IMG/VR virus record: IMGVR_UViG_3300008111_000003
Strand: one strand, 5' to 3'
From: a virus
DNA length: 64,000 nt
A model generated the notes under the pieces. That model made no database searches. It was given only the letters and a program-made list of their open reading frames with translations, and was not told the origin of the DNA. A program made the position numbers and the translations under genes. This document shows, one piece after another, positions 27,540-57,884 of the stretch. The first letter of the stretch is position 1, and each line of letters opens with the position of its first letter.

Positions 27540-28544
27540 ATGGCTGGAATCGGACTTGATGTTGGTACAAGTTATATTGTAAAAGCAAAAGATAATAACG
27601 GCAATATTGAATATAAAGACTTTAGAGATGCTTTCTATATTATAAAGCCATCATCCCCAGTAGCCACAAAAATGATCGAAAAAGGATTGTCTGGTAAGGT
27701 TTTTATCAAAGATAATGATGGATCATTTATTCTCTTAGGTAAAGATGCTATTGAAAAAGCAATAGAAAGAAACGATACAGCAAAAAGACCAATGTATAGG
27801 GGCGTTGTATCAGCAAAAGAAAAAGATGCTAAAAGAGTATTAGCATTTATCCTACAAGAAGTAGTCGGGCAATCTTCTGAAGCCGGTCAAAAATTGGTTT
27901 ATTGTGTTCCAGCACAACCTGTAGATCAAGAAGATGAAGATTTTGATATTGGATATCATGAAGATGTTATTAAGACTATCTTACAAGAAGTTGGTTATGA
28001 TGCTCGATCTATTAATGAAGCAGAAGCGTTGTGCTATGCTGAATTAGATACAAATGATTATACTGGCATAGGTATTAGTTGTGGTGCTGGAATGACTAAT
28101 ATTTGTGTTATGCTTAATGGTGAACCAACCGTGGTTTTTAGTACCACCAAGAGTGGCGACTGGGTTGATCGTATGAGTGCTGTAGCCACCGGAGAACCCG
28201 ATAGTGTAATTCAAGCAGAGAAGGAGGCGGGTGGTTTTAAAATTGGCGAACCCAACGATAATCCAATATTAGCAGCGGTTTCAGCATACTATGAAAGATT
28301 AATTGATTATACTACTAAGCAATTAAGTGCTGCTCTTACTGGACATAAAAGTTTACCAAAGTTTAAAGATCCACTAACAATTGTTATTGCTGGAGGAACA
28401 TCTCAGGCTAATGGATATATTGAACAGTTTACGCAAAAACTAAGCGATAATAATTTTCCACTAGTAGTCAAAGAAATCAGACACGCCAAAGATCCATTAC
28501 ACGCTGTTGCTAAAGGTTGTTTGATAGCATCCCAAATACTCTAA
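27540..28544 (+). CDS. actin-fold ATPase (volactin/MreB-like)
   Basis: GLDVGTS, RPM.RG, INEAEA, ISCGAGMT, IAGGTS, AVAKG. Confidence 0.85.
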   Translation: MAGIGLDVGTSYIVKAKDNNGNIEYKDFRDAFYIIKPSSPVATKMIEKGLSGKVFIKDNDGSFILLGKDAIEKAIERNDTAKRPMYRGVVSAKEKDAKRVLAFILQEVVGQSSEAGQKLVYCVPAQPVDQEDEDFDIGYHEDVIKTILQEVGYDARSINEAEALCYAELDTNDYTGIGISCGAGMTNICVMLNGEPTVVFSTTKSGDWVDRMSAVATGEPDSVIQAEKEAGGFKIGEPNDNPILAAVSAYYERLIDYTTKQLSAALTGHKSLPKFKDPLTIVIAGGTSQANGYIEQFTQKLSDNNFPLVVKEIRHAKDPLHAVAKGCLIASQIL

Positions 28545-31822: not shown

Positions 31823-32671
31823 ATGTTTTCTATTTTACCAGAATTTAAAGAACAATATTCTAGATATATAGATCTAGGTAAAAAGTATCTGAGTAATCAA
31901 AAGATTATTGTAGTTGGACTAACTAGAAATTCAGAATCATATCTAGAAGAAAATATTTTGGCAATTGATAATATCAAAAGTTATTGTAGTAAATTATCAT
32001 ATTTTATATATGAGAATGATTCTACTGATAATACTAGTAAAACCTTATCTAGTCTTAAGTCCAAAGTTCAAAATTTCGATTATAGATCTGATAAACTAAA
32101 TCTCAAACAGTTTGTTCACGGGAAAAACATGGACCTTAAATCCATAGAAAGAACGTCTAATCTTGCTAAACACCGTAACATTTGCTTATCTCATGTTCAA
32201 AAGAATAATGACAAATTTGATTTTGTCATAGTGATGGATACAGATTTTCAAAAATTTAGTCTTGATGGTATCATTAATTCTTTTGGATGGCTGTCTGCTA
32301 ATTATTGTGATGCTATGGTTGGTAATTCATTTGAGATGAAATCATTAACTATGGATCAAACATCTCAAATTATATGGAATTATGACTGTTGGGCATATAG
32401 AGGCTCTTGGTGGGAAGATTTGCAAAAATATGCAGCAGTATATTCTCATGATCCTATGATGTGGTTTGGTTTTTGGCAACCGCCTATTGGAAGTAGTCCG
32501 ATTAAAGTTAACAGTGCTTTTGGTGGTATTGCTATATATAAAAGCGCTGACTATATTAAAAGTAAATATGATGGATATGATTGTGAGCATGTATGTTTTC
32601 ATAAAAATATGATCACTAAATTTCCAGATTATAAGATATGTATAAACCCATCTCAAATGATGTTTTTTTGA
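31823..32671 (+). CDS. glycosyltransferase (CAP59/GT69-like)
   Basis: YENDSTD.T, LA..RN, VMDTD, VNSAFGG.AIY, CEHV. Confidence 0.8.
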   Translation: MFSILPEFKEQYSRYIDLGKKYLSNQKIIVVGLTRNSESYLEENILAIDNIKSYCSKLSYFIYENDSTDNTSKTLSSLKSKVQNFDYRSDKLNLKQFVHGKNMDLKSIERTSNLAKHRNICLSHVQKNNDKFDFVIVMDTDFQKFSLDGIINSFGWLSANYCDAMVGNSFEMKSLTMDQTSQIIWNYDCWAYRGSWWEDLQKYAAVYSHDPMMWFGFWQPPIGSSPIKVNSAFGGIAIYKSADYIKSKYDGYDCEHVCFHKNMITKFPDYKICINPSQMMFF

Positions 32672-32826
32672 CTAAGGAGAATTTAAAATAACAATTGTAC
32701 TTATTATTGCTATGTTGATTGGAGTATTTCAAGCATACATTTCAATTTGTGATGTTAGATTAAATAAAACTTCAGGTGTGAAACCTTCAAATAGTTTAAT
32801 TGAATATATTTTTTTGAATCGCTAAG

Positions 32827-33366
32827 ATGAATAGACTTAATAATCAAAGAGTTTACCTTGCTGGTGCTATGGATAGGGTAATAGATCGTGGTACTGGATG
32901 GAGAGATAGTATTACTCCATTTCTTACTAGTCTAGGAATAGTAGTTTTTAACCCAATTAGTAAACCAACCGATATCGGATTAGAAGATCATGATACTCAT
33001 CAAATTAAAACTAAACTGAAACATATGGGTCGATATGATGAATTGACTGCGATGATGAAAACTATACGAGCAGTAGATTTACGATTAGTTGATATTAGTG
33101 ATTTTCTGATAGTTAATCTTGATTTAGATCACTATGCTTGTGGAACATGGGAAGAAATAAGTCTGGCAAACCGTCAAAAAAAACCTATTATAGTTCATAT
33201 GGCTCAAGGTAAAAATCACGCACCTGACTGGCTTTTTGGAATGATCCCACACCAAATGATTTTTTCAAGTTGGGATGAAATCAAACATTATCTTAGCCAT
33301 ATTAATACATCAGAAAATATAGATACTCATAAGAGATGGTATTTCTTCAATGCAAAAAATAATTAA
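32827..33366 (+). CDS. nucleoside 2-deoxyribosyltransferase-like protein
   Basis: VYLAGAM, WR, VFNP, DL..VD.SD, GTWEE, KP. Confidence 0.8.
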   Translation: MNRLNNQRVYLAGAMDRVIDRGTGWRDSITPFLTSLGIVVFNPISKPTDIGLEDHDTHQIKTKLKHMGRYDELTAMMKTIRAVDLRLVDISDFLIVNLDLDHYACGTWEEISLANRQKKPIIVHMAQGKNHAPDWLFGMIPHQMIFSSWDEIKHYLSHINTSENIDTHKRWYFFNAKNN

Positions 33367-38941: not shown

Positions 38942-39625
38942 ATGACAAATGTTACCAACAATGACTTCACTCTTCTTAATACTATTCATGATTATAATAT
39001 TGATCTAAATAATAGAGAGATATATCTACACTCATATATGTCTGATGAATCTGATGAGGCTGGCGTTGATTATAGATCAGCAATAGTATTTGAAAAAAAC
39101 CTACGCTACCTTAACAGCATATCATTAGAACCCATTCTTGTGCATATGCATTTGCCTGGCGGCGACTGGCAAGATTGTTTGGGCATTTATGATTCTATAC
39201 GAGCCAGCAAAAGCAAAGTTATTATAGTCGCTACTGCTAAAGTTGAATCTAGTAGTAGTGTACTATTGCAAGCGGCAGACCTGAGAATTCTAACACAAAA
39301 TACTAATTTTTTGATCCATTATGGATCACTTAGTATTGATAACGAACACAAGGCCGCTTTAAGCACAGTACAGTGGAGTGAAAAAGAGAGCGAAAAGATG
39401 ATCGATATATTCACTGAAAAGTGTATGAATAGTATTATATGTAAAGAAAAAAATTGGAAAAGAATGATGGTACGAAAACATATTGTGAGTCAGTTAGCCA
39501 CAAAAAGAGATTGGATACTAACATCGGACGAGGCCGTAAGATATGGTTTTGCTGATGGAGTATTAGGCACAAAAAAATATCCCAACATAGAATATATCAA
39601 AAACTTAATGAAGAAATCAAAATAG
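38942..39625 (+). CDS. ClpP-like protease
   Basis: REIYL, PGG, ESS (Ser), LIH (His), RDW.L..DEA..YGFAD (Asp). Confidence 0.8.
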   Translation: MTNVTNNDFTLLNTIHDYNIDLNNREIYLHSYMSDESDEAGVDYRSAIVFEKNLRYLNSISLEPILVHMHLPGGDWQDCLGIYDSIRASKSKVIIVATAKVESSSSVLLQAADLRILTQNTNFLIHYGSLSIDNEHKAALSTVQWSEKESEKMIDIFTEKCMNSIICKEKNWKRMMVRKHIVSQLATKRDWILTSDEAVRYGFADGVLGTKKYPNIEYIKNLMKKSK

Positions 39626-39626
39626 C

Positions 39627-40295
39627 ATGTATATTGATTTTGCTTTTATAGATACTGATATTAATGATATTGACTCTAAAAATATAGTCACTGAAATAAT
39701 TCAATATCCTATTAATAGCATAACAGCTCCGTACTATTTAATCAAAGGAATTAAAAATCTGGTTCCTACTGACCGTATCAGTCTATCTTGCCTGATTGAT
39801 TATCCGTTAGGCATTTCTGATAGTAAAACACGGCGATTTTCTGTTGAGCAAGCATCTAAGATTGGTATAAACTTCGTGGATATTGCTATGCCACAGAATT
39901 TAGCAGCAAATAGGAGGTATGATAAAATAAGAGACGATATCAAATATGCGATGGAATTTTGTTCTACTAATAATATTCAACCTCGATATATACTAGAATA
40001 TAGAACTTTCGACCACCACTGTTTAAAGAAAATTTGTGAGATATTTGAGAGTTTCAAGATAACGTATGTTTTTCCATCAACAAATTTCTTTCTTGATAAT
40101 TTAGCCGATAATATACTAGCATCCGTTTTTCTATATCAAAACTCAAAAGACCTAAATATTATTTCCACTGGTAACGTATGGTGCGATAAACATTTTGATA
40201 CTATGATTAAATCTGGCCTATTTGGGTTTAGAACAACCTCAGTTCATAGTTTGAAAAATTTTGTAGCTTTTAATTCTGGCCTTAAACATAAATAG
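39627..40295 (+). CDS. DeoC/aldolase-like TIM barrel, catalytically degenerate
   Basis: IDYPLG, VDI.M, YILE, PSTNF in place of KTSTGF. Confidence 0.7.
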   Translation: MYIDFAFIDTDINDIDSKNIVTEIIQYPINSITAPYYLIKGIKNLVPTDRISLSCLIDYPLGISDSKTRRFSVEQASKIGINFVDIAMPQNLAANRRYDKIRDDIKYAMEFCSTNNIQPRYILEYRTFDHHCLKKICEIFESFKITYVFPSTNFFLDNLADNILASVFLYQNSKDLNIISTGNVWCDKHFDTMIKSGLFGFRTTSVHSLKNFVAFNSGLKHK

Positions 40296-40296
40296 T

Positions 40297-40306
40297 GGTG
40301 TATAAC
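40297..40306 (+). promoter_or_regulatory. putative phage late promoter (GGTGTA motif)
   Basis: TGGTGTATAA upstream of the structural block; motif recurs intergenically at least 12 times. Confidence 0.6.
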
Positions 40307-40344
40307 CTGTTGTTCCACAAAATTCTTTAATATGGAGTATAATA

Positions 40345-40911
40345 ATGGCAACAGCTCAAGTAAATGGTAGTGCTACCACAGTTTCGCCATATGGCGCTAT
40401 AGTTGAAGCTAGCAATAATCACGGCACAATGAGAGCTAACGGAACATCAACATCTAATGTTGTAGAAAATGTTAACACAGTTAGACCAGTTGTTGATGCT
40501 TTTGGATCCAGGGTAGTTCCTGACTCTGTAACAGAAAAAGACTATGCTGGCAAAGCAGTTAGTGCTGGCACTTTTGCTCACAACCACGTTAAGCCGATTA
40601 GTAGTTTAGTTACCACAGAACTAGCCGGTGTTGATACTAATGTTATCAAATCTCCCGCTAATGATGGTGTTAAGCGTAGTATCAATAAAGTTGAGAATAA
40701 TAAGTCTGTACTATTTACAACAGCTATTAGAGCTAACAAGTACAATAGGGTAACTGGTAAATGGGATAGTAATTATCCTGCCGCTCAAACCATTAGTTTT
40801 GCTAGTGATGAGGCTGCTAATCCTACACTTAGTGTTCCTGGTGAACTAACATATCGCACAGGTTCCAAGGTTCCAGTTAATGATAACTATAAGAATAAAA
40901 CCAACGGCTGA
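40345..40911 (+). CDS. probable virion structural protein
   Basis: A/T/N/S-rich, GGAG SD, late motif upstream. Confidence 0.6.
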   Translation: MATAQVNGSATTVSPYGAIVEASNNHGTMRANGTSTSNVVENVNTVRPVVDAFGSRVVPDSVTEKDYAGKAVSAGTFAHNHVKPISSLVTTELAGVDTNVIKSPANDGVKRSINKVENNKSVLFTTAIRANKYNRVTGKWDSNYPAAQTISFASDEAANPTLSVPGELTYRTGSKVPVNDNYKNKTNG

Positions 40912-40941
40912 TAATCAACACTATTAACTTTAACGACACAT

Positions 40942-40981
40942 AATAAGCCAATGATACTTGAAGGTGTCGTTGGCTTATTTA
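40942..40981 (+). terminator. long hairpin/terminator
   Basis: AATAAGCCAATGATAC...GTGTCGTTGGCTTATT followed by short T run. Confidence 0.65.
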
Positions 40982-40996
40982 GTTATGGAGAAGCCT

Positions 40997-41314
40997 ATGA
41001 GTGAAACTATTATTCATTTTTGGGAAAATATTGCAACAACTAGTATTGGTATTATTGTGACTATGATGGGGTTTTGGGTGGCTATAGGCCGCAATATGGT
41101 AACCAAAAGCGAAGTGGCTCAACTCATCAAAAATGAAAGTCCTTATCTTCAAGATCGTCAGTTTATTATGGAAAGATTAGCTAGTAATAAAGAGACTCAA
41201 GCGGCATTTGCATCAGCACTTCAGCGTAATACTGAAGTTATGAACGAACTTAAAATTCAAATAGCCACTCTTGGTAAAACACTAGAGGCTCTTGAAGATA
41301 GAATAGATCGCTAG
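40997..41314 (+). CDS. TM plus coiled-coil protein (holin-like)
   Basis: single TM then coiled coil; GGAG SD; alternative in-frame ATG at 40985. Confidence 0.6.
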   Translation: MSETIIHFWENIATTSIGIIVTMMGFWVAIGRNMVTKSEVAQLIKNESPYLQDRQFIMERLASNKETQAAFASALQRNTEVMNELKIQIATLGKTLEALEDRIDR

Positions 41315-41353
41315 GTGTATTATACTATAACTCACTAGAATAAAGGTAAAAAT

Positions 41354-41566
41354 ATGGCTAATGACATTAATAAAATCGTATCGGCTAATCCCATTAAAAA
41401 TGGTACAGTTCTCGTTTCTTGCACTAGAACTGGAGAATATTCCACACTAGATACTAATGTTAAGAACACTCCAGCTATAGCGGATATACAAAATAAATAT
41501 GATGCTAGATTTGATGATCCAAGCTACTATTATGGTCTAGGTAACTCTAACGTGATAGGAACCTAA
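41354..41566 (+). CDS. hypothetical late protein
   Basis: GGTGTA motif at 41314. Confidence 0.6.
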   Translation: MANDINKIVSANPIKNGTVLVSCTRTGEYSTLDTNVKNTPAIADIQNKYDARFDDPSYYYGLGNSNVIGT

Positions 41567-41568
41567 TT

Positions 41569-42048
41569 ATGGGAATTGTAAGAATAAATGAACTTCCAGA
41601 AGGCTCTGGTAATTTAACTAATGATGATATTTTCATTTTTATGGATGATCCATCTGGTGGTGGAGTTACTAAAAAAATTAGTTTGAGTGAAATTAGTAAC
41701 GCTATTGGTGTAGGATCGCCTAGTTTTACAGTTATTAATCTTGGTAGTGTTAGTGGAAATATTAATACTGATGCTAGTTCTGGTGGCATTTTTGATCTAA
41801 CATTAACTGGTAGTGGACTATTAACCAATCCAACCAATCCAACAAATGGTCAAACATTAAGGTGGAGAATACGTCAAGATAATACTGGTAATAGAATATT
41901 AAGTCTTGGAAATAAATTTAAGATTCCATCTAGCGCAACCAATCCACTCCCTTTTAGTGGCGGGAGTGGCGTTATGGATATTCTTGGTGCCACATATCAT
42001 GCTGGTCGTGACAAATGGGATATTGTAGCATTTGTACCCGGTTACTAA
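41569..42048 (+). CDS. tail-fibre-related protein
   Basis: VRINELP...TKKI N-terminus; RQDNTG.R.L.....F...D.LG C-domain typical of fibre tips. Confidence 0.7.
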   Translation: MGIVRINELPEGSGNLTNDDIFIFMDDPSGGGVTKKISLSEISNAIGVGSPSFTVINLGSVSGNINTDASSGGIFDLTLTGSGLLTNPTNPTNGQTLRWRIRQDNTGNRILSLGNKFKIPSSATNPLPFSGGSGVMDILGATYHAGRDKWDIVAFVPGY

Positions 42049-42076
42049 AATTTACATAATATAATAAGGAGATTTT

Positions 42077-42379
42077 ATGAATTTATCAAATCCTATTACT
42101 ATTCAGCCACCAACTATTATAAGAGCCGATGGAGAAGTGCGAGTTCAAAATCCCATAATAATTAAAGAACTTAGTTTAATAATTATTGATGATGTAAAAA
42201 ATAAAAATGTTATTGTTAAAATTAAACCATGTCCTTTTCCCTTGGTTGTATGGACAAAACAAGATTATGATACTGTAGGTGATTATACCCAAACCCAATT
42301 AGAAAATAGAGTATTAGAGTTGCTTGGGGATGATATTAAAAGTAGTCTAGAAAAATTATTTAAGCCTCCAACTAGATAG
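42077..42379 (+). CDS. tail-fibre-associated protein (chaperone-like)
   Basis: position; W..DYD.VGDYT. Confidence 0.55.
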   Translation: MNLSNPITIQPPTIIRADGEVRVQNPIIIKELSLIIIDDVKNKNVIVKIKPCPFPLVVWTKQDYDTVGDYTQTQLENRVLELLGDDIKSSLEKLFKPPTR

Positions 42380-42389
42380 TTTAAAAATT

Positions 42390-43355
42390 ATGGCAACATT
42401 TTATTTGTATGCTACCAATCTAGAAGATGGTTACATCAACTGGAATAGTCTTGGTAATTGGTGGATGAGCTATAATGCTGAAACCAATGTTTATTCTGTT
42501 CCAGCCTCAACTTTACCATCAAGTTCTGATGATGTTATAATTAAAGATCAAACTCTATCTATCTCTATTGGTAATAATGGACCAAACATAGTAATAAATA
42601 ATTTAACTATTGATATTTCATCCAACCAGTACGCATATCTTGAAAACATAACAATCACAATAAATAATACTTGCTATTTAAATAATACGACTTTGTCTCC
42701 TAATACAACCATAAATGGAAATTGTGTTTTTACTGGTAGTGCTACCATATATCAAGATGTTATTGTTAATGGAGATTGTATTTTTAATGCTAATGATGTC
42801 TATAATGGTTTTTATATAGGTGGTGGAATCATTAATGGAAATATAATATGTAATGATAATAATTGGAATACGATAATTATCGGAGCAGCGTATAGCCCAC
42901 TCGTTATAAATGGTGATCTCACTTTGAATGGTTGGTGTAGGATGGATAATCAGACTGATAACTTAACTATAAATGGAAATTTGATATTGAATAATATTTC
43001 ATATATAGAAAGTACTACACTTACTGTTAATGATGGAACTATCACTTTTAATGATTATTCTAGCAATTATGGTACTATAACCGGAAATTGTGTTTTTAAT
43101 GATTATTCTAACAATGGTGGTACTATAACGGGAAATTGTGTTTTTAATGGTTATTCTATAGGTGGTGGTACTATAACCGGAGATTGTGTTTTTAATCATA
43201 GTTCTCACCATAATGGAATAATTTATGGTATTGCTTTGTTTAAAGACTCAAGTTATCAAGAATCATCGTCTGTAGTAGAATATATTGAATATACTAATAG
43301 AACACCATATCCAATACCGGGTGGTATTAATGGAGGTATGCTAGCAATAGCATAG
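42390..43355 (+). CDS. beta-helix repeat virion/receptor-binding protein, copy A
   Basis: I.GN/DC.FN beta-solenoid repeats; paralog of next gene. Confidence 0.75.
   Translation: MATFYLYATNLEDGYINWNSLGNWWMSYNAETNVYSVPASTLPSSSDDVIIKDQTLSISIGNNGPNIVINNLTIDISSNQYAYLENITITINNTCYLNNTTLSPNTTINGNCVFTGSATIYQDVIVNGDCIFNANDVYNGFYIGGGIINGNIICNDNNWNTIIIGAAYSPLVINGDLTLNGWCRMDNQTDNLTINGNLILNNISYIESTTLTVNDGTITFNDYSSNYGTITGNCVFNDYSNNGGTITGNCVFNGYSIGGGTITGDCVFNHSSHHNGIIYGIALFKDSSYQESSSVVEYIEYTNRTPYPIPGGINGGMLAIA
43045..43206 (+). repeat. 48-bp coding tandem repeat (16 aa)
   Basis: TTTAAT-xxx-xxx-TCT-N9-GGTACTATAACCGGA(A/G)ATTGTGTT, about 3.3 units; also at ~44041-44200. Confidence 0.85.
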
Positions 43356-43362
43356 AAGAATT

Positions 43363-44364
43363 ATGGCAACATTTTATTTGTATGCTACCAATCTAGAAGA
43401 TGATTATGGTTACATCGACTGGAATAGTCTTGGTAATTGGTGGATGAGCTATAATGCTGAAACCAATGTTTATTCTGTTCCAGCCTCAACTTTACCATCA
43501 AGTTCTGATGATGTTATAATTAAAGATCAAGACCCAAACTATCCTTATAGTAGTTTTATTATTTATAATAATGGACCAAACATAGTAATAAATAATTTAA
43601 CTATTGATATTTCATCCAACTGGTTCGTAGATCTTATAGACATAACAATCACAATAAATAATACTTGCTATTTAAATAATACGACTTTGTCCCTTAATAC
43701 AACCATAAATGGAAATTGTGTTTTTACTGGTAGTGGTACCATATATCAGGATGTTATTGTTAATGGAGATTGTATTTTTAATGCTACCACCATTAATGAT
43801 GGTTTTTATATAGGTGGTGGAATCTTTAATGGAAATATAATATGTAATGATAATAATTGGAATGTGATAGTTATCGGAACATCGTATAGCCCACTCGTTA
43901 TAAATGGTGATCTCACTTTGAATGGTTGGTCTTATATGTTTTATGACACTTATAACTTAACTATAAATGGAAATTTGATATTGAATAATATTTCATATAT
44001 AGAAATTAGTACACTTACTGTTAATGATGGAACTATCACTTTTAATGATTATTCTTACAATATTGGTACTATAACCGGAGATTGTGTTTTTAATGATTAT
44101 TCTTACAATAATGGCATTATAACCGGAGATTGTGTTTTTAATGGTTATTCTATAGGTGGTGGTACTATAACCGGAGATTGTGTTTTTAATCATAGTTCTA
44201 GTAATTATGGAACAACAATCTATGGTAATGCCACATTTAAACACGCTAGTTATAATAAGAATGATGGGGCGTATGTAATAACAGGAACTGAATCTTATTC
44301 TCAAAGAGATACTTGGCCATTACCACGCGGTATTAATAGATCAAATATTTTAGGATTAATTTAA
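43363..44364 (+). CDS. beta-helix repeat virion/receptor-binding protein, copy B
   Basis: near-identical DNA to copy A outside variable patches. Confidence 0.75.
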   Translation: MATFYLYATNLEDDYGYIDWNSLGNWWMSYNAETNVYSVPASTLPSSSDDVIIKDQDPNYPYSSFIIYNNGPNIVINNLTIDISSNWFVDLIDITITINNTCYLNNTTLSLNTTINGNCVFTGSGTIYQDVIVNGDCIFNATTINDGFYIGGGIFNGNIICNDNNWNVIVIGTSYSPLVINGDLTLNGWSYMFYDTYNLTINGNLILNNISYIEISTLTVNDGTITFNDYSYNIGTITGDCVFNDYSYNNGIITGDCVFNGYSIGGGTITGDCVFNHSSSNYGTTIYGNATFKHASYNKNDGAYVITGTESYSQRDTWPLPRGINRSNILGLI

Positions 44365-44365
44365 T

Positions 44366-44770
44366 ATGAGCGCAAAACTATATGATTTCTCTATTGAACA
44401 AGGAACATCCTTTAGATTATCTTTAATATATAAAGATAGCAATGGAGACGTTATTGATCTCACTAATTATTGTGCTAGATTAACTATGAAAACTGGAAAT
44501 AATGAGTATAAAACTTTTAGTAGTTTAAATACTAATTTTAGTGAGTATAAATTTACTATTGATGGACCTCAAGGAACCATAACATTACTGATCCCGGCCA
44601 CAACTACTAATAACTATAATTTCAATAGTGCCAAATATGATTTAGAATTACAAAGTGATCAAGATTTATATAGTGGTGGTGGCAAACTCACAATAAGAGT
44701 ATTATATGGTACAATAACCATAGTTAAAAGATTTAGCCAATCATCTATTATACTAGATTGTTCATTATGA
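44366..44770 (+). CDS. tail/baseplate-associated Ig-like protein
   Basis: IEQG.SF...DLT.Y.AR...G.ITL...YDLEL...R.LYG.I. Confidence 0.7.
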   Translation: MSAKLYDFSIEQGTSFRLSLIYKDSNGDVIDLTNYCARLTMKTGNNEYKTFSSLNTNFSEYKFTIDGPQGTITLLIPATTTNNYNFNSAKYDLELQSDQDLYSGGGKLTIRVLYGTITIVKRFSQSSIILDCSL

Positions 44771-47700
44771 GTTGTTTTGATGTTAAAATTTTAGATCCTG
44801 ATATTAACACCATAACTATTGAAAGTTGTATTGGTGATCAACCAGCGTCTATAGAGGTTATCACTTATAATAATACGAATATTTTAGAAGTTAATAGTTG
44901 TGTTGCATTATTACCATCTGATATTAATGATTTAATACCGGTTAAAGATATATTACCAGGAAGCGGAATAGGTATAGTATCAACTAGTGGAATTTATACT
45001 ATATCATTAAATGATCCTAATTTAACATCTAGTGATATAATTGATTTTTTAGAGAGTGTTCAGGATATTATTGGGCAGAGTGGACTGTATGCGGGAAATT
45101 ACATTAATTTAAGTTATAATGATACTACAGGCTTTACCACAATATCAGTCACAGGATTACAGCCGAGTGGTAATTATAGCGTGGTCGGTCATACTCATAT
45201 AAGTTCTAATATTACTGACTTTAATAGCTCCGTTAGTGGACTGTTACCAATTAAAAATATAACCGCTGGCAGTGGAATAGGAATATCTTCAGTTTCTGGA
45301 GATTATATAGTTAGTGTAACAGGAACTTTTGGACTAACTAGTGAAGAGGTCGATGATAGGGTTAGTAAATTATTAATAGCTGATAATTATGTTAACTTAA
45401 ACTATGATGATATTGCTAATAGTTTAACAATCAGTGTAACAGGATTACAGCCAAGTGGCAATTATAGTTTAGCTGGTCATACGCACTTTAGTAGTGATAT
45501 TACCGACTTTAGTAGTTCTGTAAGTGGACTATTGCCACCATCAAATTTTACATCACTAATAGGAGTTAGTGGCATAACAGTTAGTAATAGTGGAACAAAT
45601 TATACTGTTAGTTTAACTGATCCAACAATACAACTAGCAGATATCACAGATTTGTCATCTAATAGTAGAACTTTCCTATTAACTCCATCTAGTTCCAATT
45701 TAGCCACCCTCATTACTGATGAAACTGGTTCTGGATTTTTGGTTTTTAATAATAGTCCAACATTAAGTGGAATACCTACAGCACCAACCGCACCAAGTGG
45801 AACCAATAATACTCAAATTGCTAATACAGCATTTGTACGAACAGAAATTAGTAATCTCATTAACTCTGCACCGAGTACACTAGATACACTAAATGAATTA
45901 GCCTCTGCTCTTGGTAATGATCCTAATTTTGCAACTAGTGTAACTAATAGTTTAGCATCTAAGGCCGCCCTTGCTGGAGCAATTTTTACTGGGCCAGTAA
46001 CTATTCCAAGTGGAACTGGTAATTTTAATAGTTTAACTGTGAATGGAATAGGAATAAGTTTAAGTGGTCATTCTCATACCATAGCCGATATAATAAACTT
46101 TAATAGTGGAGTAAGTGGTTTATTACCAAATATAACCGGTATCAATTATATAATATCAAACTTTTCTGATAATATTTATTCTATTGGTGTTACTGGCTTA
46201 CAACCTAGTGGAAATTATAGTGTTGTTGGCCACACTCACTCTAGTTTAGATATAACAAATTTTAATTCTAGTGTTAGTGGCTTATTACCAACTGTTACTG
46301 GAATTGATCAAGTAACCTCCAAATTTACCAATAATACTTACACTATTTCTGTAACAGGACTACAGCCGAGCGGGAATTATAGTGTGGTTGGCCACGCTCA
46401 CATAACCAGCGATATAACAAACTTTAGTAGCGGTGTGAGCGGACTACTTCCCGGCGTTAGTGGCTCTGGCTATGCTGTCTCAAACTTTGCTAACAACATT
46501 TATACTATTAGTGTAACAGGACTACAGCCAAGTGGTAATTATAGTGCTGTTGGACATAATCACACTATTAGTGATATTACTAATTTCTCTAGTGGAGTAA
46601 AAAATATAGTATCAACCACATTAGTAGCTGGTACCGGAATAGTATTTGATGAAAATTTAATTAATAATACATTTACTATTAGTACAACTGGATTACAACC
46701 TAGCGGAAATTATAGTATTGTTGGACATGTTCATACATCTAGCGATATTACTAATTTTGATAATAGTGTAAGTGGATTATTGCCAGTAAAAAATATATCT
46801 GCTGGAAGTGGTATAGGAGTAACCTCATTATCTGGTGATTATACAGTGAGTGTAACTGGGACATTTGGTTTAACTAGTGAAGAAGTTGACGATAGAATAT
46901 CATCATTATTAATTGCTGGTAATTATATTAATCTCAATTATAATGATAATCTAAATAGTTTGACTATTAGCACAACTGGACTACAGCCTAGCGGAAACTA
47001 CAGTTTAGTTGGTCATACACACGTTAGTAGTGAAATTACAAATTTCAATAGTAGTGTTAGTGGACTATTACCAAGTATTACTGGTTCTGGCTATATTACT
47101 TCTAACTTTAGTAATAATATCTATAATCTTAGTGTAACCGGATTACAACCTAGCGGAAACTATAGTTTAATAGGACATAATCATTCTAGTAGTGAAATTA
47201 CTGATTTTAATACCTCTGTTAGTGGATTAATTCAGGTTAAAGATATTCTTGGTGGGACAAATGTTAGTATTGGTAGTTCTAGTGGAGTATATACAGTTAG
47301 TATTACTGGTGGAGTTGTAGCTAGTAGTGCATCATCGTTAACAGTAAGTTGTCATAATCTAACCGGATCAACAATTAATAGAATGAGTGCTGTTTATATT
47401 AATGGTGGCCACGGCAACGAACCAACAATATCTCTAGCTATTGCTAATAGCGAAAGTACTAGTAGTAAAACATTTGGTTTAGCGGTTGAAGATATTAATG
47501 ATAATAATAGTGGTGATGTGATTGTTATTGGTTCCCTAATAGATGTTAATACTGATCAATTTGGAGTTGTTGAAGGAACCACTTTATATCTTAGTCCGAG
47601 TATTTCGGGTGCTTTAACAACAATTAAACCATTAGCCCCAAATCATTTAGTTACTATTGGTAAAATTGTTCGTAATCATATTAATCAAGGAATAATTCAA

Positions 47701-48162
47701 GTTAGTATACAAAATGGTTTTGAGCTATATGAACTACACGATGTTGCCGTAACAGGAGCTATTGCTGGTCAATTTTTACAACGTAATGGTAGTGGTTTAT
47801 GGATTCCATCCAGTAGTGGTAATTTTACAACGCTACAAGTAAATAATACAGACGTAAGTTTAAATGGTCATACTCATACTAGTAATAATATAACAAACTT
47901 TAACTCTAGTGTTAGTGGATTGTTACCAGTGACAAATATAATAGCTGGTTCTAATATTGGAGTTTCACAATCTGGAACAGTATTTACTATTGCGGTAACC
48001 GGTCTAACGGCAGAAGATGTCGATGATAGAGTAGCAAACTTATTAATAGCTGGTACTGGTATAAGCTTAAATTATAATGATAATGCAAATACTTTGACAG
48101 TAAACACTACAACAAATATTATTAATAGTTCTAATTTATATTTATGGTCATCTTTTAGGTAA
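44767..48162 (+). CDS. long tail fibre protein
   Basis: 8x TGLQPSGNYS..GHxH repeats; PTAPT..GTNNTQIANTAFV and APSTLDTLNELA.ALGNDPNFAT fibre motifs. Confidence 0.9.
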   Translation: MSCFDVKILDPDINTITIESCIGDQPASIEVITYNNTNILEVNSCVALLPSDINDLIPVKDILPGSGIGIVSTSGIYTISLNDPNLTSSDIIDFLESVQDIIGQSGLYAGNYINLSYNDTTGFTTISVTGLQPSGNYSVVGHTHISSNITDFNSSVSGLLPIKNITAGSGIGISSVSGDYIVSVTGTFGLTSEEVDDRVSKLLIADNYVNLNYDDIANSLTISVTGLQPSGNYSLAGHTHFSSDITDFSSSVSGLLPPSNFTSLIGVSGITVSNSGTNYTVSLTDPTIQLADITDLSSNSRTFLLTPSSSNLATLITDETGSGFLVFNNSPTLSGIPTAPTAPSGTNNTQIANTAFVRTEISNLINSAPSTLDTLNELASALGNDPNFATSVTNSLASKAALAGAIFTGPVTIPSGTGNFNSLTVNGIGISLSGHSHTIADIINFNSGVSGLLPNITGINYIISNFSDNIYSIGVTGLQPSGNYSVVGHTHSSLDITNFNSSVSGLLPTVTGIDQVTSKFTNNTYTISVTGLQPSGNYSVVGHAHITSDITNFSSGVSGLLPGVSGSGYAVSNFANNIYTISVTGLQPSGNYSAVGHNHTISDITNFSSGVKNIVSTTLVAGTGIVFDENLINNTFTISTTGLQPSGNYSIVGHVHTSSDITNFDNSVSGLLPVKNISAGSGIGVTSLSGDYTVSVTGTFGLTSEEVDDRISSLLIAGNYINLNYNDNLNSLTISTTGLQPSGNYSLVGHTHVSSEITNFNSSVSGLLPSITGSGYITSNFSNNIYNLSVTGLQPSGNYSLIGHNHSSSEITDFNTSVSGLIQVKDILGGTNVSIGSSSGVYTVSITGGVVASSASSLTVSCHNLTGSTINRMSAVYINGGHGNEPTISLAIANSESTSSKTFGLAVEDINDNNSGDVIVIGSLIDVNTDQFGVVEGTTLYLSPSISGALTTIKPLAPNHLVTIGKIVRNHINQGIIQVSIQNGFELYELHDVAVTGAIAGQFLQRNGSGLWIPSSSGNFTTLQVNNTDVSLNGHTHTSNNITNFNSSVSGLLPVTNIIAGSNIGVSQSGTVFTIAVTGLTAEDVDDRVANLLIAGTGISLNYNDNANTLTVNTTTNIINSSNLYLWSSFR

Positions 48163-54908: not shown

Positions 54909-55149
54909 TATTATAGTATGGTGTGTATATGGTTTATTTGTGGGTTCCATAGCCAAGAGCATAGTACCTGGTGAAGAAAATTTTGGCTTTGTGAAAACTG
55001 TTGCTTTAGGCGTAATTGGTTCGTATACTGGTGGAGCCATACTATACCTATTAGGGTCATATAGTTCAGTATCTCCTGCTGGTATTTTTATGGGTATTGC
55101 TGGATCAATAGTATCACTAATAGTATATAATAAATTAGTGTTAAAATGA
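54901..55149 (+). CDS. GlsB/YeaQ/YmgE (transglycosylase-associated) membrane protein
   Basis: IIVW...GL.VG.IAK.I.PG....G...T..LG..GS..GG. Confidence 0.85.
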   Translation: MFDIIVWCVYGLFVGSIAKSIVPGEENFGFVKTVALGVIGSYTGGAILYLLGSYSSVSPAGIFMGIAGSIVSLIVYNKLVLK

Positions 55150-56531
55150 GATGCTGCGGGCCTATTGATAGAAGATCTTTTCTAGAAATTGGTTCTTTAG
55201 GATTTGCTGGATTGACATTATCGGATATGATCCAACTACAAGCAGTAGAACCCAAACCTAGAAAGTCTTTGATTTTTATATGGTTACCCGGTGGTGTTTC
55301 TCAGTTAGAAACGTATGATCTTAAACCGCAAGCGCCAGACGAATATAGAGGTCTATTAAAACCAATTAATACTAATATTAATGGTATACAAATAAGTGAA
55401 CTATTTCCAAAGCAATCCAAGATTGCAGACAAGTTTACTATTATTCGCTCAATGAGTCATTCTTTTACCGATCATGGTGGCGGCTCTAAAAGAGTTATGA
55501 TGGCTAGAAGACCAGCAACACCAACAGGAACTATTAATGACCACCCGTCAACCTGTTCAATGATAAATAGATTTACAGAAAAAAATAATACATCATCTAT
55601 ACCTAATAGTATTATTTTAGGAGATAGTGGAGCAACCAAACCCGATAGCATAGCTTTGGGCGCAGCATATCTAGGACCACAGTATACCCCATTTGAAGTT
55701 GATGGGGATCCATCAAAACATAATTTTAAAGTTAATTCATTATCCCTAAGCATGGGTTTAACTTCTGAAAGACTAGATAATAGAATGAATTTACTCAAAT
55801 CTATAGATAAAGTTGATCGCTCAATAGATTTAACAAAATCGATGTCTACTATGGATAAGTTTCATGATCAGGCACAAAATTTATTATTTAGTTCCTCTGT
55901 GAAAGCTGCGTTTGATGTTTCTCTAGAAAAAGAAAATATAAGATTAAAGTATGGTCAACACGCCTGGGGACAAAGAGCTTTAATGGCAAGACGATTAATC
56001 GAAGCTGGATGCGGTAGTGTTATTGTTACTATGAGTAATCCTAGTGTATCTATTAAACCGCCGACAGATAATACTTATTATAACTGGGATTGTCATGCTG
56101 TTAATACTCATTTATTTGATGATATGAAATTTAGAGCGCCATTATATGACGAAGCCATAGCTGCTCTAATAGAAGATGTTTATGATAGAGGATTAGATAA
56201 GGATGTTATGATTGTAGTAATGGGTGAATTTGGACACACTCCAAAATTAGAATATAAATCTGGTAAAGGTGGAAAAATTTGGCCGGGCAGAGATCATTGG
56301 TCAAAAGCATATTCAATTCTTGTTTCTGGTGGTGGCTTTAAAATGGGTCAGGTTATTGGCAAGTCTGATGACAAGGGAGCTTTTGTTGAAGATAGAATGA
56401 TATTACCAGAAGATTTATGGACTACAATATTTTATCATATGAATATTAATCCAAAAAGTATTATCCATGATTTTACTGGTCGACCAATACCACTTTTACC
56501 AGAAGGTAATCTTATAAAGGAATTAATATAA
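55146..56531 (+). CDS. DUF1501-family protein (Planctomycete type) with Tat signal
   Basis: DRRSFL; IFIWL.GG.SQLETYDLKP.AP...RG; WDCH; MGEFG.TP; GRDHW; GGG.K.GQVIG.SD. Confidence 0.88.
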   Translation: MRCCGPIDRRSFLEIGSLGFAGLTLSDMIQLQAVEPKPRKSLIFIWLPGGVSQLETYDLKPQAPDEYRGLLKPINTNINGIQISELFPKQSKIADKFTIIRSMSHSFTDHGGGSKRVMMARRPATPTGTINDHPSTCSMINRFTEKNNTSSIPNSIILGDSGATKPDSIALGAAYLGPQYTPFEVDGDPSKHNFKVNSLSLSMGLTSERLDNRMNLLKSIDKVDRSIDLTKSMSTMDKFHDQAQNLLFSSSVKAAFDVSLEKENIRLKYGQHAWGQRALMARRLIEAGCGSVIVTMSNPSVSIKPPTDNTYYNWDCHAVNTHLFDDMKFRAPLYDEAIAALIEDVYDRGLDKDVMIVVMGEFGHTPKLEYKSGKGGKIWPGRDHWSKAYSILVSGGGFKMGQVIGKSDDKGAFVEDRMILPEDLWTTIFYHMNINPKSIIHDFTGRPIPLLPEGNLIKELI

Positions 56532-56533
56532 TC

Positions 56534-57884
56534 ATGAGTATTATTCTACCAACAATAACAAATAGAAGAAATTATATAAAAGGATTAACTCTTGGTGCAG
56601 GAGCTATTATTCTACAGCCTTTTTTAGATTCCTTAGCATCTCAAGCTAATGGAGAAAAATCTCCCCCCTCGTATAATATTTTTTATTGAATCCAATGGAC
56701 TATATCCCCGTCATATACAGCCAAAAGAAATAAAAACTACTAGTGAATCTAATATAATTGATAAATCTTTGAATGAATTAGAATTACCAGATGCTATAGC
56801 GCCACTTAATCCATTAAAGGAAAAAATGTGTATAATACAAAAACTATCACATAAAGTCTCTGGTGGCGGAGACCATGGAAAAGGATATGGCGGATTAGGA
56901 TGTTTTCATTGGAGAAAAGATGTTGCTGGTCAAACTATAGATCATGCACTAGCTGAATCTGTTAAAAGTATAATCCCAGTATTAGGTTTAGCTATACCTC
57001 CACAATCATCTGCAATTTTTGTTCAAAGTGTATCAGCTATTGGATATAAAAAACCGCTATCAATGATTTGTCAACCAAATGTTGCTTTTCAAACATTATT
57101 TGGTAGTGTAGCAGAGGGCGATGCGGGTAAAATATATAATGCTAGAAATAAACTACTAGACTATATTAAAACAGATATAAATAGAGTACGCAATAGTTTA
57201 CCATCAATGGATAAGATTAAATTAGATAATTATTTACAATCATTTGATGAGATTTTATATAGACAAAATGAAACTATTAAAATTCAGGATAAGATTAGAC
57301 GAAACCAACCAATAACAGATAAATTTCATAGTGAATTAAATATCGATAGATTTGAATCTCAGTGTGATATTTTAGTGTCAGCTCTTATTAGTGGACTAAC
57401 AAATATAGTTACTTTAGATGCTGCTGGTGGAATTCAACAATATCATACATGGAAATCTTTAGGTATTGATATTGATGGTCATGCTATTGGTCATATGAAT
57501 GGACCAGATAATTTATCTGTACCAATTCGTAAATATCATGCTGAAAGAGTATTAGATATTGCTAATAGACTCGATTCTATTAAAGAGGGCGATGGTACAA
57601 TGCTTGATAATAGTCTTATAGTTTGGATGAGCGACTCTGGTGAGGGTCATCATGGTTTTTGTGCCGAATGGCCTATTGTATTGATAGGTAATTTAGGCGG
57701 CAGACTAAAAACCGATGGTAGATTTTTACAATATCCAGCTTATGGTAGTACCGGCAACAGAACCATTCGCAATCTCTATCTATCGCTGCTACATGCTGTT
57801 GGAGATAACAGAGAAAAATTTGGAGAGCTTGATTTAGAAATGGCAGCAGCCGAACAGTCTGGTCCATTAACAGAAATACTATAA
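56534..57884 (+). CDS. DUF1552-like protein; Tat signal (56534-) is out of frame with the body (56649-57884)
   Basis: NRRNYIKGLTLGAG signal; body TIDH.LA, D..KLD.YL, H..GH, L.SI.EGDGTMLDN.LIV..SD.GE.HH; shift at or near C6 run 56663-56668. Confidence 0.8.

What the first reader, a model, noticed from the sequence alone, without database searches (positions are those of the whole stretch)
42390..44364. Tandem beta-helix virion genes with DGR-like hypervariation across the whole gene
Seen: the two paralogs are identical over long DNA stretches. In my manual alignment, excluding two indels and the divergent tail, about 34 codons change amino acid versus about 3 silent changes. In about 29 of the 34, codon position 3 is untouched (e.g. 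AAC/GAC, TAC/TTC, TAT/GAT, GAT/TTT, AAT/TAT, AGC/TAC, GGT/AAT). Changes cluster in short patches, roughly one per solenoid rung. Established: diversity-generating retroelements mutate template adenines, turning AAY codons into NNY, usually in a short C-terminal variable region of a C-type lectin fold. Inference: this is either a directed mutagenesis system acting on ~800 bp of a beta-helix (an unusual target and length), or extreme diversifying selection with gene conversion. Either way it looks like a variable receptor-binding pair. No reverse transcriptase or template repeat is visible in this window.
Basis: partly seen in the sequence, partly recalled or inferred. Interest (0 to 1): 0.85.

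Follow-up and report, generated by a model that had tools for sequence, protein, structure and literature searches.

The report
Tandem tail beta-helix paralogs, no DGR
Two neighbouring copies of a phage tail beta-helix gene share an identical scaffold and differ only along one side of the helix and in the C-terminal tail; the differences are two fixed allele sets that recombination between the copies reshuffles, not retroelement-driven hypermutation.

Summary
The sequence description holds. ORF A (42390-43355) and ORF B (43363-44364) are tandem paralogs with identical DNA runs up to 113 nt. In the 272-codon core, 39 codons change amino acid and 5 are silent. Changes cluster one patch per solenoid rung.

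The DGR reading fails:
- 24 gene copies from 13 metagenomic loci carry only the A or B state at 107 diagnostic sites, with one exception.
- Paralog A is encoded letter for letter on at least 23 contigs.
- Only 1 of 4 private substitutions is at an adenine, and 253 core adenines are invariant.
- Indels separate the copies.
- No RT or template copy lies in the 64-kb window.

Core dN/dS is 1.56, not significantly above 1.

An AlphaFold model gives a right-handed parallel beta-helix like tailspikes and adhesins. By its strand register, 37 of 41 substitutions lie in the T2-PB3-T3 arc of each rung, so one side varies and the other is invariant.

Flanking genes are 100% identical across strains. All variation is contiguous A-to-B or B-to-A tracts of 79-335 nt, rung gains and losses, and one hybrid single gene.

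Best reading: a lineage-specific duplicated tail protein pair under concerted evolution, with probable selection on one face. Assembler mis-phasing could explain some mosaics. This is an ordinary kind and a tidy example.

The parts
42390..43355 (+). Paralog A (slot 1), 321 aa, right-handed parallel beta-helix tail protein. Its core, about 42390-43205, is nearly identical to B. Its tail, about 43206-43355, is divergent.
   Evidence: ORF. Identical protein (P0004) on at least 23 contigs. No Pfam or PHROG hit. Codon alignment.
43363..44364 (+). Paralog B (slot 2), 333 aa. It has the same scaffold as A, B-type patches on the T2-PB3-T3 side, +2 and +5 codon insertions, and a different C-terminal tail (about 44200-44364).
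   Evidence: AlphaFold2 model of P0002, which is one residue different from window B: pLDDT 87.8, pTM 0.85. VIA-align Z 15-19 to EtpA, TibA, the Pam1 tailspike and phi29 gp12.
42998..43254 (+). Run of 48-nt (16-aa) rung repeats in A, of the form GTITGxCVFNxYSxNx. These are a substrate for rung-to-rung conversion and rung gain or loss.
   Evidence: the repeat finder family D1. Variant 11-mers recur in neighbouring rungs.
43992..44248 (+). Run of 48-nt rung repeats in B. Other strains carry +6 nt and +90/96 nt (two extra rungs) here.
   Evidence: insertions after 44060 and 44063 in L003, L005, L006, L007 and L008.
43931..44009 (+). Segment of slot 2 that carries the A-type sequence in L005, L006, L007 and L008. 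Minimum tract is 79-127 nt, bounded by 43882..44056/44080. L009, whose contig ends inside slot 2, shows its first 21 nt. Slot 1 in L005 and L009 is fully A-type here; in L006-L008 slot 1 is cut or deleted over this segment and is A-type where present. So the transfer is non-reciprocal.
42554..42888 (+). Segment of slot 1 that carries the B-type sequence in L015 and L016 (335 nt, including B's 15-nt insertion). A shorter tract, 42742-42888, is seen in L004.
41569..42048 (+). 159-aa conserved module partner. It is the homolog of the PF26209 (Phage_phiTE_241_C) protein that precedes single-copy beta-helix genes in other phages.
   Evidence: 57% identity to L011:7549-7998, E 6e-65. Weak PHROG tail-fibre hit. 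Context.
42077..42379 (+). 100-aa conserved module partner. It follows the beta-helix gene in relatives and precedes the pair here.
   Evidence: 57% identity to L011:8923-9225, E 3e-47.
44366..44770 (+). 134-aa protein (phrog_1084, unknown function) between the pair and the long fibre.
44758..48162 (+). 1134-aa repeat-rich tail fibre (PF12789 PTR; PHROG tail-fibre families). It places the pair in the tail module.
   Evidence: A 900-aa variant occurs in L006-L008.

Best explanation
A and B are a lineage-specific tandem duplication of a fast-evolving phage tail beta-helix protein, probably a tailspike- or adhesin-like receptor-binding or fibre-associated protein. It belongs to a large uncharacterised family.

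The two genes evolve in concert. Recombination between the copies (non-reciprocal conversion tracts of about 80-335 nt, unequal crossover, and rung-to-rung exchange among the 48-nt repeats) keeps the N-terminal domain and the PB1-T1-PB2 half of every rung identical at the DNA level. The C-terminal tail escapes this.

The copies differ by two fixed sets of residues lining the T2-PB3-T3 side of the solenoid. These most likely were fixed by selection for two different surface specificities.

In the present near-clonal population, the only variation is reshuffling of these two allele sets and of rung number.

Shown: the duplication, the one-sided distribution, the biallelic state, the tracts, and the absence of DGR parts in the window. 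Inferred: virion location, receptor binding, positive selection.
For: 1. Core against tail. The core has silent-site pS 0.010 in the non-arc half, and the tail has dS 0.69.
2. Mosaics. In 24 copies from 13 loci all mosaics are contiguous tracts of the other slot's sequence. L005 and L009 carry the A-type segment in both slots; L006-L008 carry it in slot 2.
3. Clonal flanks. Flanks are 100% identical, and in 11 of 12 loci every difference from the window lies in A/B or the fibre repeats.
4. New allele. The L005-type slot 2 also carries a 6-nt duplication that cannot be derived by mis-phasing the window's copies. It recurs in L003, L005, L006, L007 and L008.
5. One side. 37 of 41 substitutions lie in the T2-PB3-T3 arc (p = 5e-7). 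They fall at family-wide variable columns (entropy 2.70 against 1.72, p = 1.5e-8).
6. Young patches. Changed codons share rare third bases, 5 C/C pairs against 0.8 expected (p = 0.001). Arc dN/dS is about 2.9 after removing two replacement-like patches (p = 0.03).
7. Duplication. Relatives hold one copy in the same three-gene module. The neighbours are 57% identical, and the beta-helix protein 42%.
8. Fold. Z 15-19 to tailspikes and beta-helical adhesins. The pair sits in a tail-fibre neighbourhood.
Against: - Whole-core dN/dS of 1.56 is not significantly above 1 (p = 0.27).
- Arc-only dN against arc dS is also not significant (p = 0.17). Silent divergence in the arc is 12 times that of the non-arc half (p = 0.002), so part of the arc divergence is old or comes from segment replacement rather than selection on point mutations.
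- About a dozen patches interleaved at a spacing of about 50-75 nt are not easily preserved by conversion tracts of 80-335 nt unless selection removes converted patches. Yet converted alleles are common in the sample.
- Mosaics come from short-read assemblies. Several contigs end inside the pair (L003, L004, L006, L009, L015), so some tracts and the single hybrid gene in L014 may be assembler mis-phasing or collapse.
- Function and virion location are untested.
Confidence: 0.68

Rival explanations
1. A diversity-generating retroelement, or another adenine-directed templated mutagenesis, has diversified or still diversifies about 800 bp of both genes.
For: - In 32 of 40 changed codons the third base is untouched, and rare third bases are shared.
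- Many changed codons are NNY. Multi-hit codons (14 double, 4 triple) sit on a background with about 1-2% divergence.
- About 77 kb of the phage genome outside the window could not be searched for an RT.
Against: - Strictly two states at 106 of 107 diagnostic sites in 24 copies.
- A is identical on at least 23 contigs.
- Private substitutions are C>A, G>T, T>G and A>C.
- 253 invariant adenines are interleaved with the patches, so a single template is not workable.
- There are indels of 2, 5, 1, 3 and 1 codons.
- 8 changed codons end in A or G.
- No third copy in the window even under a pattern blind to adenines.
- No RVT among RT-sized ORFs or the called genes of the loci.
- The fold is not CLec or Ig.
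- Earlier notes on four windows of this genome list no RT (a lead only).
Confidence: 0.03
2. There is no positive selection. A and B are old paralogs, and the patches are simply the least constrained, surface-exposed positions. These drift, or were replaced by small indel or segment events, while conversion and purifying selection keep the rest alike.
For: - dN/dS is about 1.4-1.5 in both the arc and the non-arc compartments, and neither is significantly above 1.
- Patch positions coincide with family-wide variable columns and with turns.
- Position-3 change in patch codons is 20%, against 1.7% elsewhere (p = 3.6e-5).
- Two patches (alignment columns 56-67 and 141-145) look like indel or replacement events.
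- C-terminal rung differences have donors in neighbouring rungs.
Against: - Shared rare third bases (p = 0.001) show that most patch codons are as young as the scaffold.
- Without the two replacement-like patches the arc ratio is about 2.9 (p = 0.03).
- Positions 1 and 2 in patches are near saturation (63% and 49%) while silent change is far lower.
- There is a directional shift. The B-type set gains D, Y, F, I and W, and the A-type set holds N, T and A.
- The only private core changes in the sample (S240Y and G243C in L013) are both non-synonymous and both in an arc.
Confidence: 0.2
3. The population 'mosaics' are artefacts of short-read assembly across tandem paralogs (mis-phased bubbles, bubble popping, repeat collapse). 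In reality the pair is static.
For: - All variation is confined to the repeat-bearing genes.
- Contigs often end inside the pair.
- L014 is a single hybrid gene on a 3.3-kb contig.
- L007 has low coverage by its own contig name.
- Three tract types share a breakpoint in the same 48-nt identical run.
Against: - Identical runs flanking the tracts are 41-54 nt, shorter than usual reads and final k-mers.
- The same slot-2 allele is found in L005, L006, L007, L008 and L009 from JGI, ENA and NCBI sources.
- That allele carries a 6-nt duplication absent from both window copies.
- L015 and L016 come from two samples and agree.
- In the 97-kb contig L005 both slots lie well inside the contig.
Confidence: 0.2

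Closest known systems
Diversity-generating retroelement targets (Bordetella phage BPP-1 Mtd and other CLec-fold variable proteins; abstracts of PMC6328139, PMC4891356, PMC10743442)
   Same: A phage tail protein in which changes hit codon positions 1 and 2 of NNY-type codons on a ligand-facing surface while the scaffold DNA stays identical.
   Different: No RT or template in the window. Two fixed states instead of open-ended variation. Changes are not adenine-directed. Patches are spread over about 800 bp and interleaved with invariant adenines. Indels are present. The fold is a beta-helix, not CLec or Ig.
Phages with several tailspike or receptor-binding proteins, such as the Ackermannviridae TSP1-4 branched complex (PMC11414711, PMC8432352)
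   Same: Adjacent genes for beta-helix tail proteins with a conserved N-terminal part and differing receptor-facing parts. Recombination swaps modules.
   Different: Those TSPs are long, mutually very divergent enzymes. Here the two copies are 91% identical in DNA over the core, are small (321 and 333 aa), have no detectable catalytic family, and exchange short tracts with each other.
Concerted evolution of duplicated genes by gene conversion (for example bacterial rRNA operons, PMC8022953; duplicated globins, PMC6209878)
   Same: Paralogs kept nearly identical by non-reciprocal transfer, with islands of difference and mosaic alleles in populations.
   Different: Here the genes are in a phage tail module, with differences confined to one structural side of a solenoid, plus changes in repeat-unit number.
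Right-handed parallel beta-helix adhesins and tailspikes (EtpA 8vba, TibA 4q1q, cyanophage Pam1 tailspike 7eea, phi29 gp12 3gq7)
   Same: The predicted fold aligns over 245-283 residues at Z 17-19.
   Different: Sequence identity is 8-15%. There is no sequence-level relative in the PDB and no Pfam or PHROG family. A shared fold shows no function.

Membership tests
Diversity-generating retroelement (DGR) target | A reverse transcriptase gene in the element, usually near the target | tested here: inconclusive
   No RVT hit among 10 RT-sized ORFs of the window or among the precomputed Pfam hits listed for called genes in the loci. About 77 kb of the 141-158 kb genome was not available to search.
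Diversity-generating retroelement (DGR) target | A template repeat that matches the variable region except at adenines | tested here: not met
   Within the 64-kb window only. blastn with word 7 finds no third copy. A 132-nt pattern with N at every adenine and every variable site hits only 42807 and 43801.
Diversity-generating retroelement (DGR) target | Substitutions confined to template adenines, and all adenines of the region mutable | tested here: not met
   253 adenines are invariant in both copies against 66 differing sites. The four private substitutions are C>A, G>T, T>G and A>C. Indels are present.
Diversity-generating retroelement (DGR) target | Many alleles at variable codons within and between populations | tested here: not met
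   At 107 diagnostic sites, 24 copies from 13 loci carry only the A or B state, with one exception. Protein A is identical on at least 23 contigs. Read-level data were not available.
Diversity-generating retroelement (DGR) target | A short C-terminal variable region in a CLec or Ig-like fold | tested here: not met
   The differences span about 800 bp of a right-handed beta-helix.
Right-handed parallel beta-helix (tailspike/adhesin-like fold) | Stacked three-strand rungs along most of the chain, with structural similarity to solved members | tested here: met
   AF2 model with pLDDT 87.8 and pTM 0.85, nearly all-beta with regular strand triplets. VIA-align Z 19.0 to 8vba, 17.9 to 7eea, 17.2 to 4q1q and 17.1 to 3gq7. 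Foldseek alone gave no hit at E of 1e-3 or below.
Bactofilin (PF04519) | Pfam score above the gathering threshold (27.9 bits) | tested here: not met
   A scores 10.6 bits, E 0.71. The distant homolog in L010 scores 20.2 bits. A few family members carry a precomputed PF04519 hit.
Paralogs under concerted evolution by gene conversion | Paralog identity far higher in one region than silent divergence elsewhere in the same genes allows | tested here: met
   Non-arc core pS is 0.010, and identical runs reach 113 nt. The tail has dS 0.69.
Paralogs under concerted evolution by gene conversion | Non-reciprocal transfer tracts between the copies seen in related genomes | tested here: met
   Tracts of 79-335 nt in slot 1 or slot 2, with the donor slot unchanged where it is present. 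Caveat: this rests on assemblies, not reads.
Phage receptor-binding / tail protein | Encoded in the tail module and present in the virion | tested here: inconclusive
   The genes lie between tail-fibre-like genes. The module is conserved next to a PF26209/collagen-repeat protein in relatives. There are no proteomic or binding data.

The most novel reading that the evidence does not exclude
The pair works as a two-cassette shuffling device. Frequent conversion between the tandem copies, plus rung gain and loss, mixes about a dozen biallelic surface patches. A near-clonal phage population thereby carries many combinations of two binding surfaces, a recombination-based alternative to DGRs for varying host recognition. 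This locus would then be the phage's main source of standing variation.
Probability: 0.15. Interest if true: 0.65.

Novelty: new member of a known kind. Interest (0 to 1): 0.33.

Why it matters
This removes a tempting false positive. DGR-like codon patterns (positions 1 and 2 changed, position 3 kept, scaffold identical) can arise in tandem paralogs of NNY-rich beta-helix proteins without any retroelement.

What remains is a clean natural example of a duplicated phage tail protein with one invariant side and one differentiated side. Recombination between the copies is the only variation seen in an otherwise identical population. If the mosaics hold up in reads, the locus would be a compact system for studying how phages vary host recognition by intragenomic recombination.

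The protein family is large (about 2,100 clusters at 50% identity) and absent from Pfam and PHROGs, so a function found for it would annotate many metagenomic genes.

Tried and rejected
- **Whole-genome searches** for RVT_1 and for a third copy: no genome is held for this window, and the metagenome records behind the loci are not searchable.
- **INPHARED phages** by blastn and tblastn: no match.
- **IMG/VR** by peptide patterns and by an exact 37-mer: nothing.
- **Metagenome contigs** by the adenine-blind pattern and by the 37-mer: nothing. The collection does not hold this phage, so the planned large population sample and template hunt failed.
- **Foldseek against PDB:** only weak generic beta-solenoid rows.
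- **Profile against PDB sequences:** best hit YdcK at E 0.002, bactofilin at E 0.96.
- **Pfam and PHROGs on A and B:** nothing, even at E of 10 or below, beyond noise.
- **Model coordinates:** not exposed, so the 'one face' test used the DSSP strand register instead of 3D distances.
- **Donor search** for N-terminal patch variants elsewhere in the window: only chance 11-mer hits.
- **Considered and dropped:** 'relic patches only' as the sole explanation, because rare third bases are shared. 'Recent duplication only', because the tail has dS 0.69.
- **Not run:** an oligomer or complex prediction, because no binding claim is made.
Full report
**What is there.** The window holds two adjacent + strand ORFs, A (42390-43355, 321 aa) and B (43363-44364, 333 aa).
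- They sit in a tail module. Upstream are a ClpP-like protease, a 159-aa protein and a 100-aa protein. Downstream are a 134-aa protein (phrog_1084) and a 1134-aa repeat-rich tail fibre (PF12789, PHROG tail-fibre families).
- A and B have no Pfam or PHROG family and no sequence relative in the PDB.
- The window is 33% G+C. It carries UvdE, an ATP-dependent ligase, RuvB, a volactin-like protein, DUF1501/DUF1552 proteins and an RNR.
- It matches 120-158 kb contigs from metagenomes, and L001 is identical to it over 21 kb. This is a large uncultured phage.

**Checking the observation.**
- The first about 279 alignment columns (272 shared codons) hold 39 amino-acid-changing and 5 silent codons, with indels of 2 and 5 codons. 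The last about 50 codons are very different (dS 0.69, dN 0.66).
- Identical DNA runs reach 113 nt.
- Amino-acid changes are clustered: 23 neighbouring pairs against 10.0 +/- 2.4 in permutations, none of 10,000 reaching 23.
- Position 3 is unchanged in 32 of 40 codons with a position 1/2 change.
- The 34:3 style of count overstates selection, because only 172 of 816 core sites are synonymous. Nei-Gojobori gives dN 0.093 and dS 0.060, ratio 1.56, Fisher p = 0.27.
- Third positions are under-represented among differences (12 of 66, p = 0.005). Part of this is composition. Both proteins are made almost wholly of residues with NNY codons and hold only 2-3 Lys and 2-3 Arg, so third-position transversions are rarely acceptable.

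**Testing the DGR model.**
- *Population sample.* The close homologs and their cluster members, and then the DNA of 24 gene copies in 13 loci from JGI, ENA and NCBI assemblies, give a direct test. In the first 18 copies, from 9 loci, all 119 variable alignment columns are two-state. At the 107 sites that tell A from B, every one of the 24 copies carries the A or the B base, with one exception.
- *Invariance of A.* Protein A is encoded letter for letter on at least 23 contigs.
- *Private substitutions.* Only four exist. C>A and G>T in L013 give S240Y and G243C. T>G and A>C in L014 give F4L and Y7S. One of the four is at an adenine.
- *Adenines.* In the core, 253 adenines are identical in both copies and are interleaved with the 66 differing sites. 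One template spanning about 800 bp would have to spare most of its adenines.
- *Indels.* They separate the copies.
- *Missing parts.* The window holds no third copy, even for a pattern with N at every adenine and variable site. It holds no RVT domain among RT-sized ORFs. The Pfam hits listed for called genes in the loci show none (and later).
- *Limit.* The remaining about 77 kb of the genome could not be searched. Earlier notes on four windows of this genome mention no RT, which is a lead and not evidence.

I put a DGR at about 3%.

**What the proteins are.**
- *Fold.* An AlphaFold2 model was built from a 41-sequence family alignment. Its first row is P0002, one residue different from window B. 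It is confident (pLDDT 87.8, pTM 0.85) and almost all beta, with regular strand triplets. Foldseek gave only weak beta-solenoid rows. The exhaustive aligner gave Z 15-19 over 245-283 residues to right-handed parallel beta-helices: the adhesins EtpA and TibA, the cyanophage Pam1 tailspike, phi29 gp12 and many tailspike depolymerases. A shared fold says nothing about catalysis.
- *Family.* It is large, with 2,099 representatives at E of 1e-3 or below and 613 at 1e-30 or below. Many are long proteins with up to 13 matched stretches.
- *Module.* In more distant phages the gene is single-copy, in the module [PF26209 protein, with collagen repeats in L010] - [beta-helix] - [100-aa protein]. The window's 159-aa and 100-aa proteins are 57% identical to those of L011, and the beta-helix protein is only 42% identical.

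So the pair is a lineage-specific duplication of the fastest-evolving member of a conserved tail module. That fits a receptor-facing role, which remains inferred.

**Where the differences lie.**
- I used the model's strand register to split each of 12 rungs into a PB1-T1-PB2 half and a T2-PB3-T3 arc. 37 of 41 substitutions fall in the arc, which holds 123 of 229 residues (p = 5e-7). The other half has only four changes.
- The variable positions are also those that vary across the distant family (mean entropy 2.70 against 1.72, p = 1.5e-8). They are modestly enriched in non-strand positions (p = 0.045).
- The B-type set is richer in D, Y, F, I and W, and the A-type set in N, T and A.

So one side of the solenoid is shared and the other is differentiated. 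I could not check this in 3D because coordinates are not exposed.

**How the pattern arose.** Two simple models each fail in part.
- *'Old paralogs, patches are relics.'* For: the tail (dS 0.69), and position 3 changed in 20% of marked patch codons against 1.7% elsewhere (p = 3.6e-5). Against: rare third bases are shared between the copies in changed codons (5 C/C pairs against 0.8 expected, p = 0.001; 11 of 16 non-T third bases retained).
- *'Recent duplicate with selection.'* For: those shared bases, and near-saturated positions 1 and 2 in patches (63% and 49%) on a background of about 2%. Against: it cannot explain the tail, or the two patches (alignment columns 56-67 and 141-145) that carry most of the gratuitous third-base changes. 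Those two patches look like indel or segment replacements.
- *Selection signal.* Without those two patches the arc has pN 0.133 against pS 0.046 (p = 0.03, a post hoc test). With them the ratio is 1.47 (p = 0.17).
- *C-terminal rungs.* In the 16-aa rungs, several variant words recur in neighbouring rungs (43115/43163/44157; 44047/44095; 44114/43172/44070/44166). Rung-to-rung conversion explains part of the differences there.

My reading is concerted evolution of an older duplicate. The differences on the arc side are kept or renewed by selection, with some small replacement events. Positive selection is likely but not proven.

**What varies today.**
- Relative to the window, the flanking genes of the loci are 100% identical. 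In 11 of 12 loci every difference lies inside A/B or in the repeats of the long fibre.
- The A/B differences are contiguous tracts of the other slot's sequence:
  - an A-type tract in slot 2 at 43931-44009 or beyond, in L005, L006, L007 and L008, with its first 21 nt in the cut copy of L009;
  - B-type tracts in slot 1 at 42742-42888 (L004) and 42554-42888 (L015, L016).
- There are also length variants:
  - a 6-nt duplication and two extra rungs in slot 2;
  - a 414-nt deletion in slot 1 (L007, L008);
  - a 9-nt duplication in slot 1 (L009);
  - one contig with a single hybrid gene, A core plus B tail (L014).
- In L005 and L009 both slots carry the A-type segment, so the transfer is non-reciprocal.

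**Caveat.** These are assemblies. Contigs often end inside the pair, and an assembler could mis-phase or collapse paralogs. Against that:
- the flanking identical runs are only 41-54 nt;
- the main allele recurs in assemblies from JGI, ENA and NCBI sources;
- that allele carries a 6-nt duplication absent from both window copies.

Reads are needed to settle this.

**Verdict.** The DGR reading is rejected. The conversion part is well supported and the selection part is suggestive. This is a new member of a known kind, of moderate interest.

Noticed in passing
window 44758-48162; L006:1744-4446, L007:7507-10209, L008:3875-6577: The long tail fibre is 1131-1134 aa in the window, L001, L002, L005 and L013, but 900 aa in L006-L008. 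The first 2471 nt are identical or nearly so, and the last 306 nt are 94% identical. This is a repeat-number or recombination variant in the same otherwise clonal background.
   Followed up: partly
window about 32390-33300 compared with L002:1-953: L002 carries a different gene cassette (PF13578 methyltransferase plus a Nuc_deoxyri_tr2-like gene) where the window, L001 and L003 have a CAP59-like mannosyltransferase. All 228 differences of L002 lie outside the A/B pair and the fibre. The first listed positions are around 32.8-32.9 kb.
   Followed up: no
window 42077-42379 compared with L010:8987-9298, L011:8923-9225 and L012:2334-2636: The conserved 100-aa module gene follows the beta-helix gene in distant relatives but precedes the A/B pair here. 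The duplication therefore went with a change of gene order.
   Followed up: no
family of A/B (alignment A2; proteins P0095-P0225): The beta-helix module (N-terminal LGNWW motif, 16-residue GTITGxCxFNxxSxNx rungs, C-terminal GINGSxILG motif) has about 2,100 representative clusters and no Pfam or PHROG model. Many members are giants of up to 3,909 aa with up to 13 matched stretches.
   Followed up: partly
L013:6001-6966 (slot 1), equivalent to window about 43105-43120: In 13 kb that otherwise differs from the window at only one other site (a shared A/B-polymorphic site in slot 2), this strain has two private substitutions 8 nt apart (S240Y and G243C). Both change amino acids and both lie in the arc of one rung. 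One of them gives the only third state at a diagnostic site.
   Followed up: partly
L014:795-1775: A 3.3-kb NCBI contig has a single hybrid gene (A core, B tail) between the 100-aa and 134-aa genes. It is either a real collapse of the tandem by unequal crossover or an assembly collapse. It also has two private N-terminal changes (F4L and Y7S).
   Followed up: partly
window 38942-42379 (upstream block) compared with L004:2601-5990: L004 has a 48-nt deletion with no mismatches somewhere in this upstream block. Its called ORF corresponding to window 40958-41314 is shorter, so the deletion probably lies there.
   Followed up: no
window 27540-28544; 55146-57884: A volactin-family actin-like protein (PF25216, E 3e-62) and a DUF1501/DUF1552 pair are encoded in this phage genome.
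   Followed up: no
window 43320-43355 and 44329-44364: The C-terminal motif (P.P.GIN....L) is shared by A, B and the wider family although the tails are otherwise divergent. The last about 13 residues are modelled with pLDDT below 50. It may be a docking peptide.
   Followed up: no
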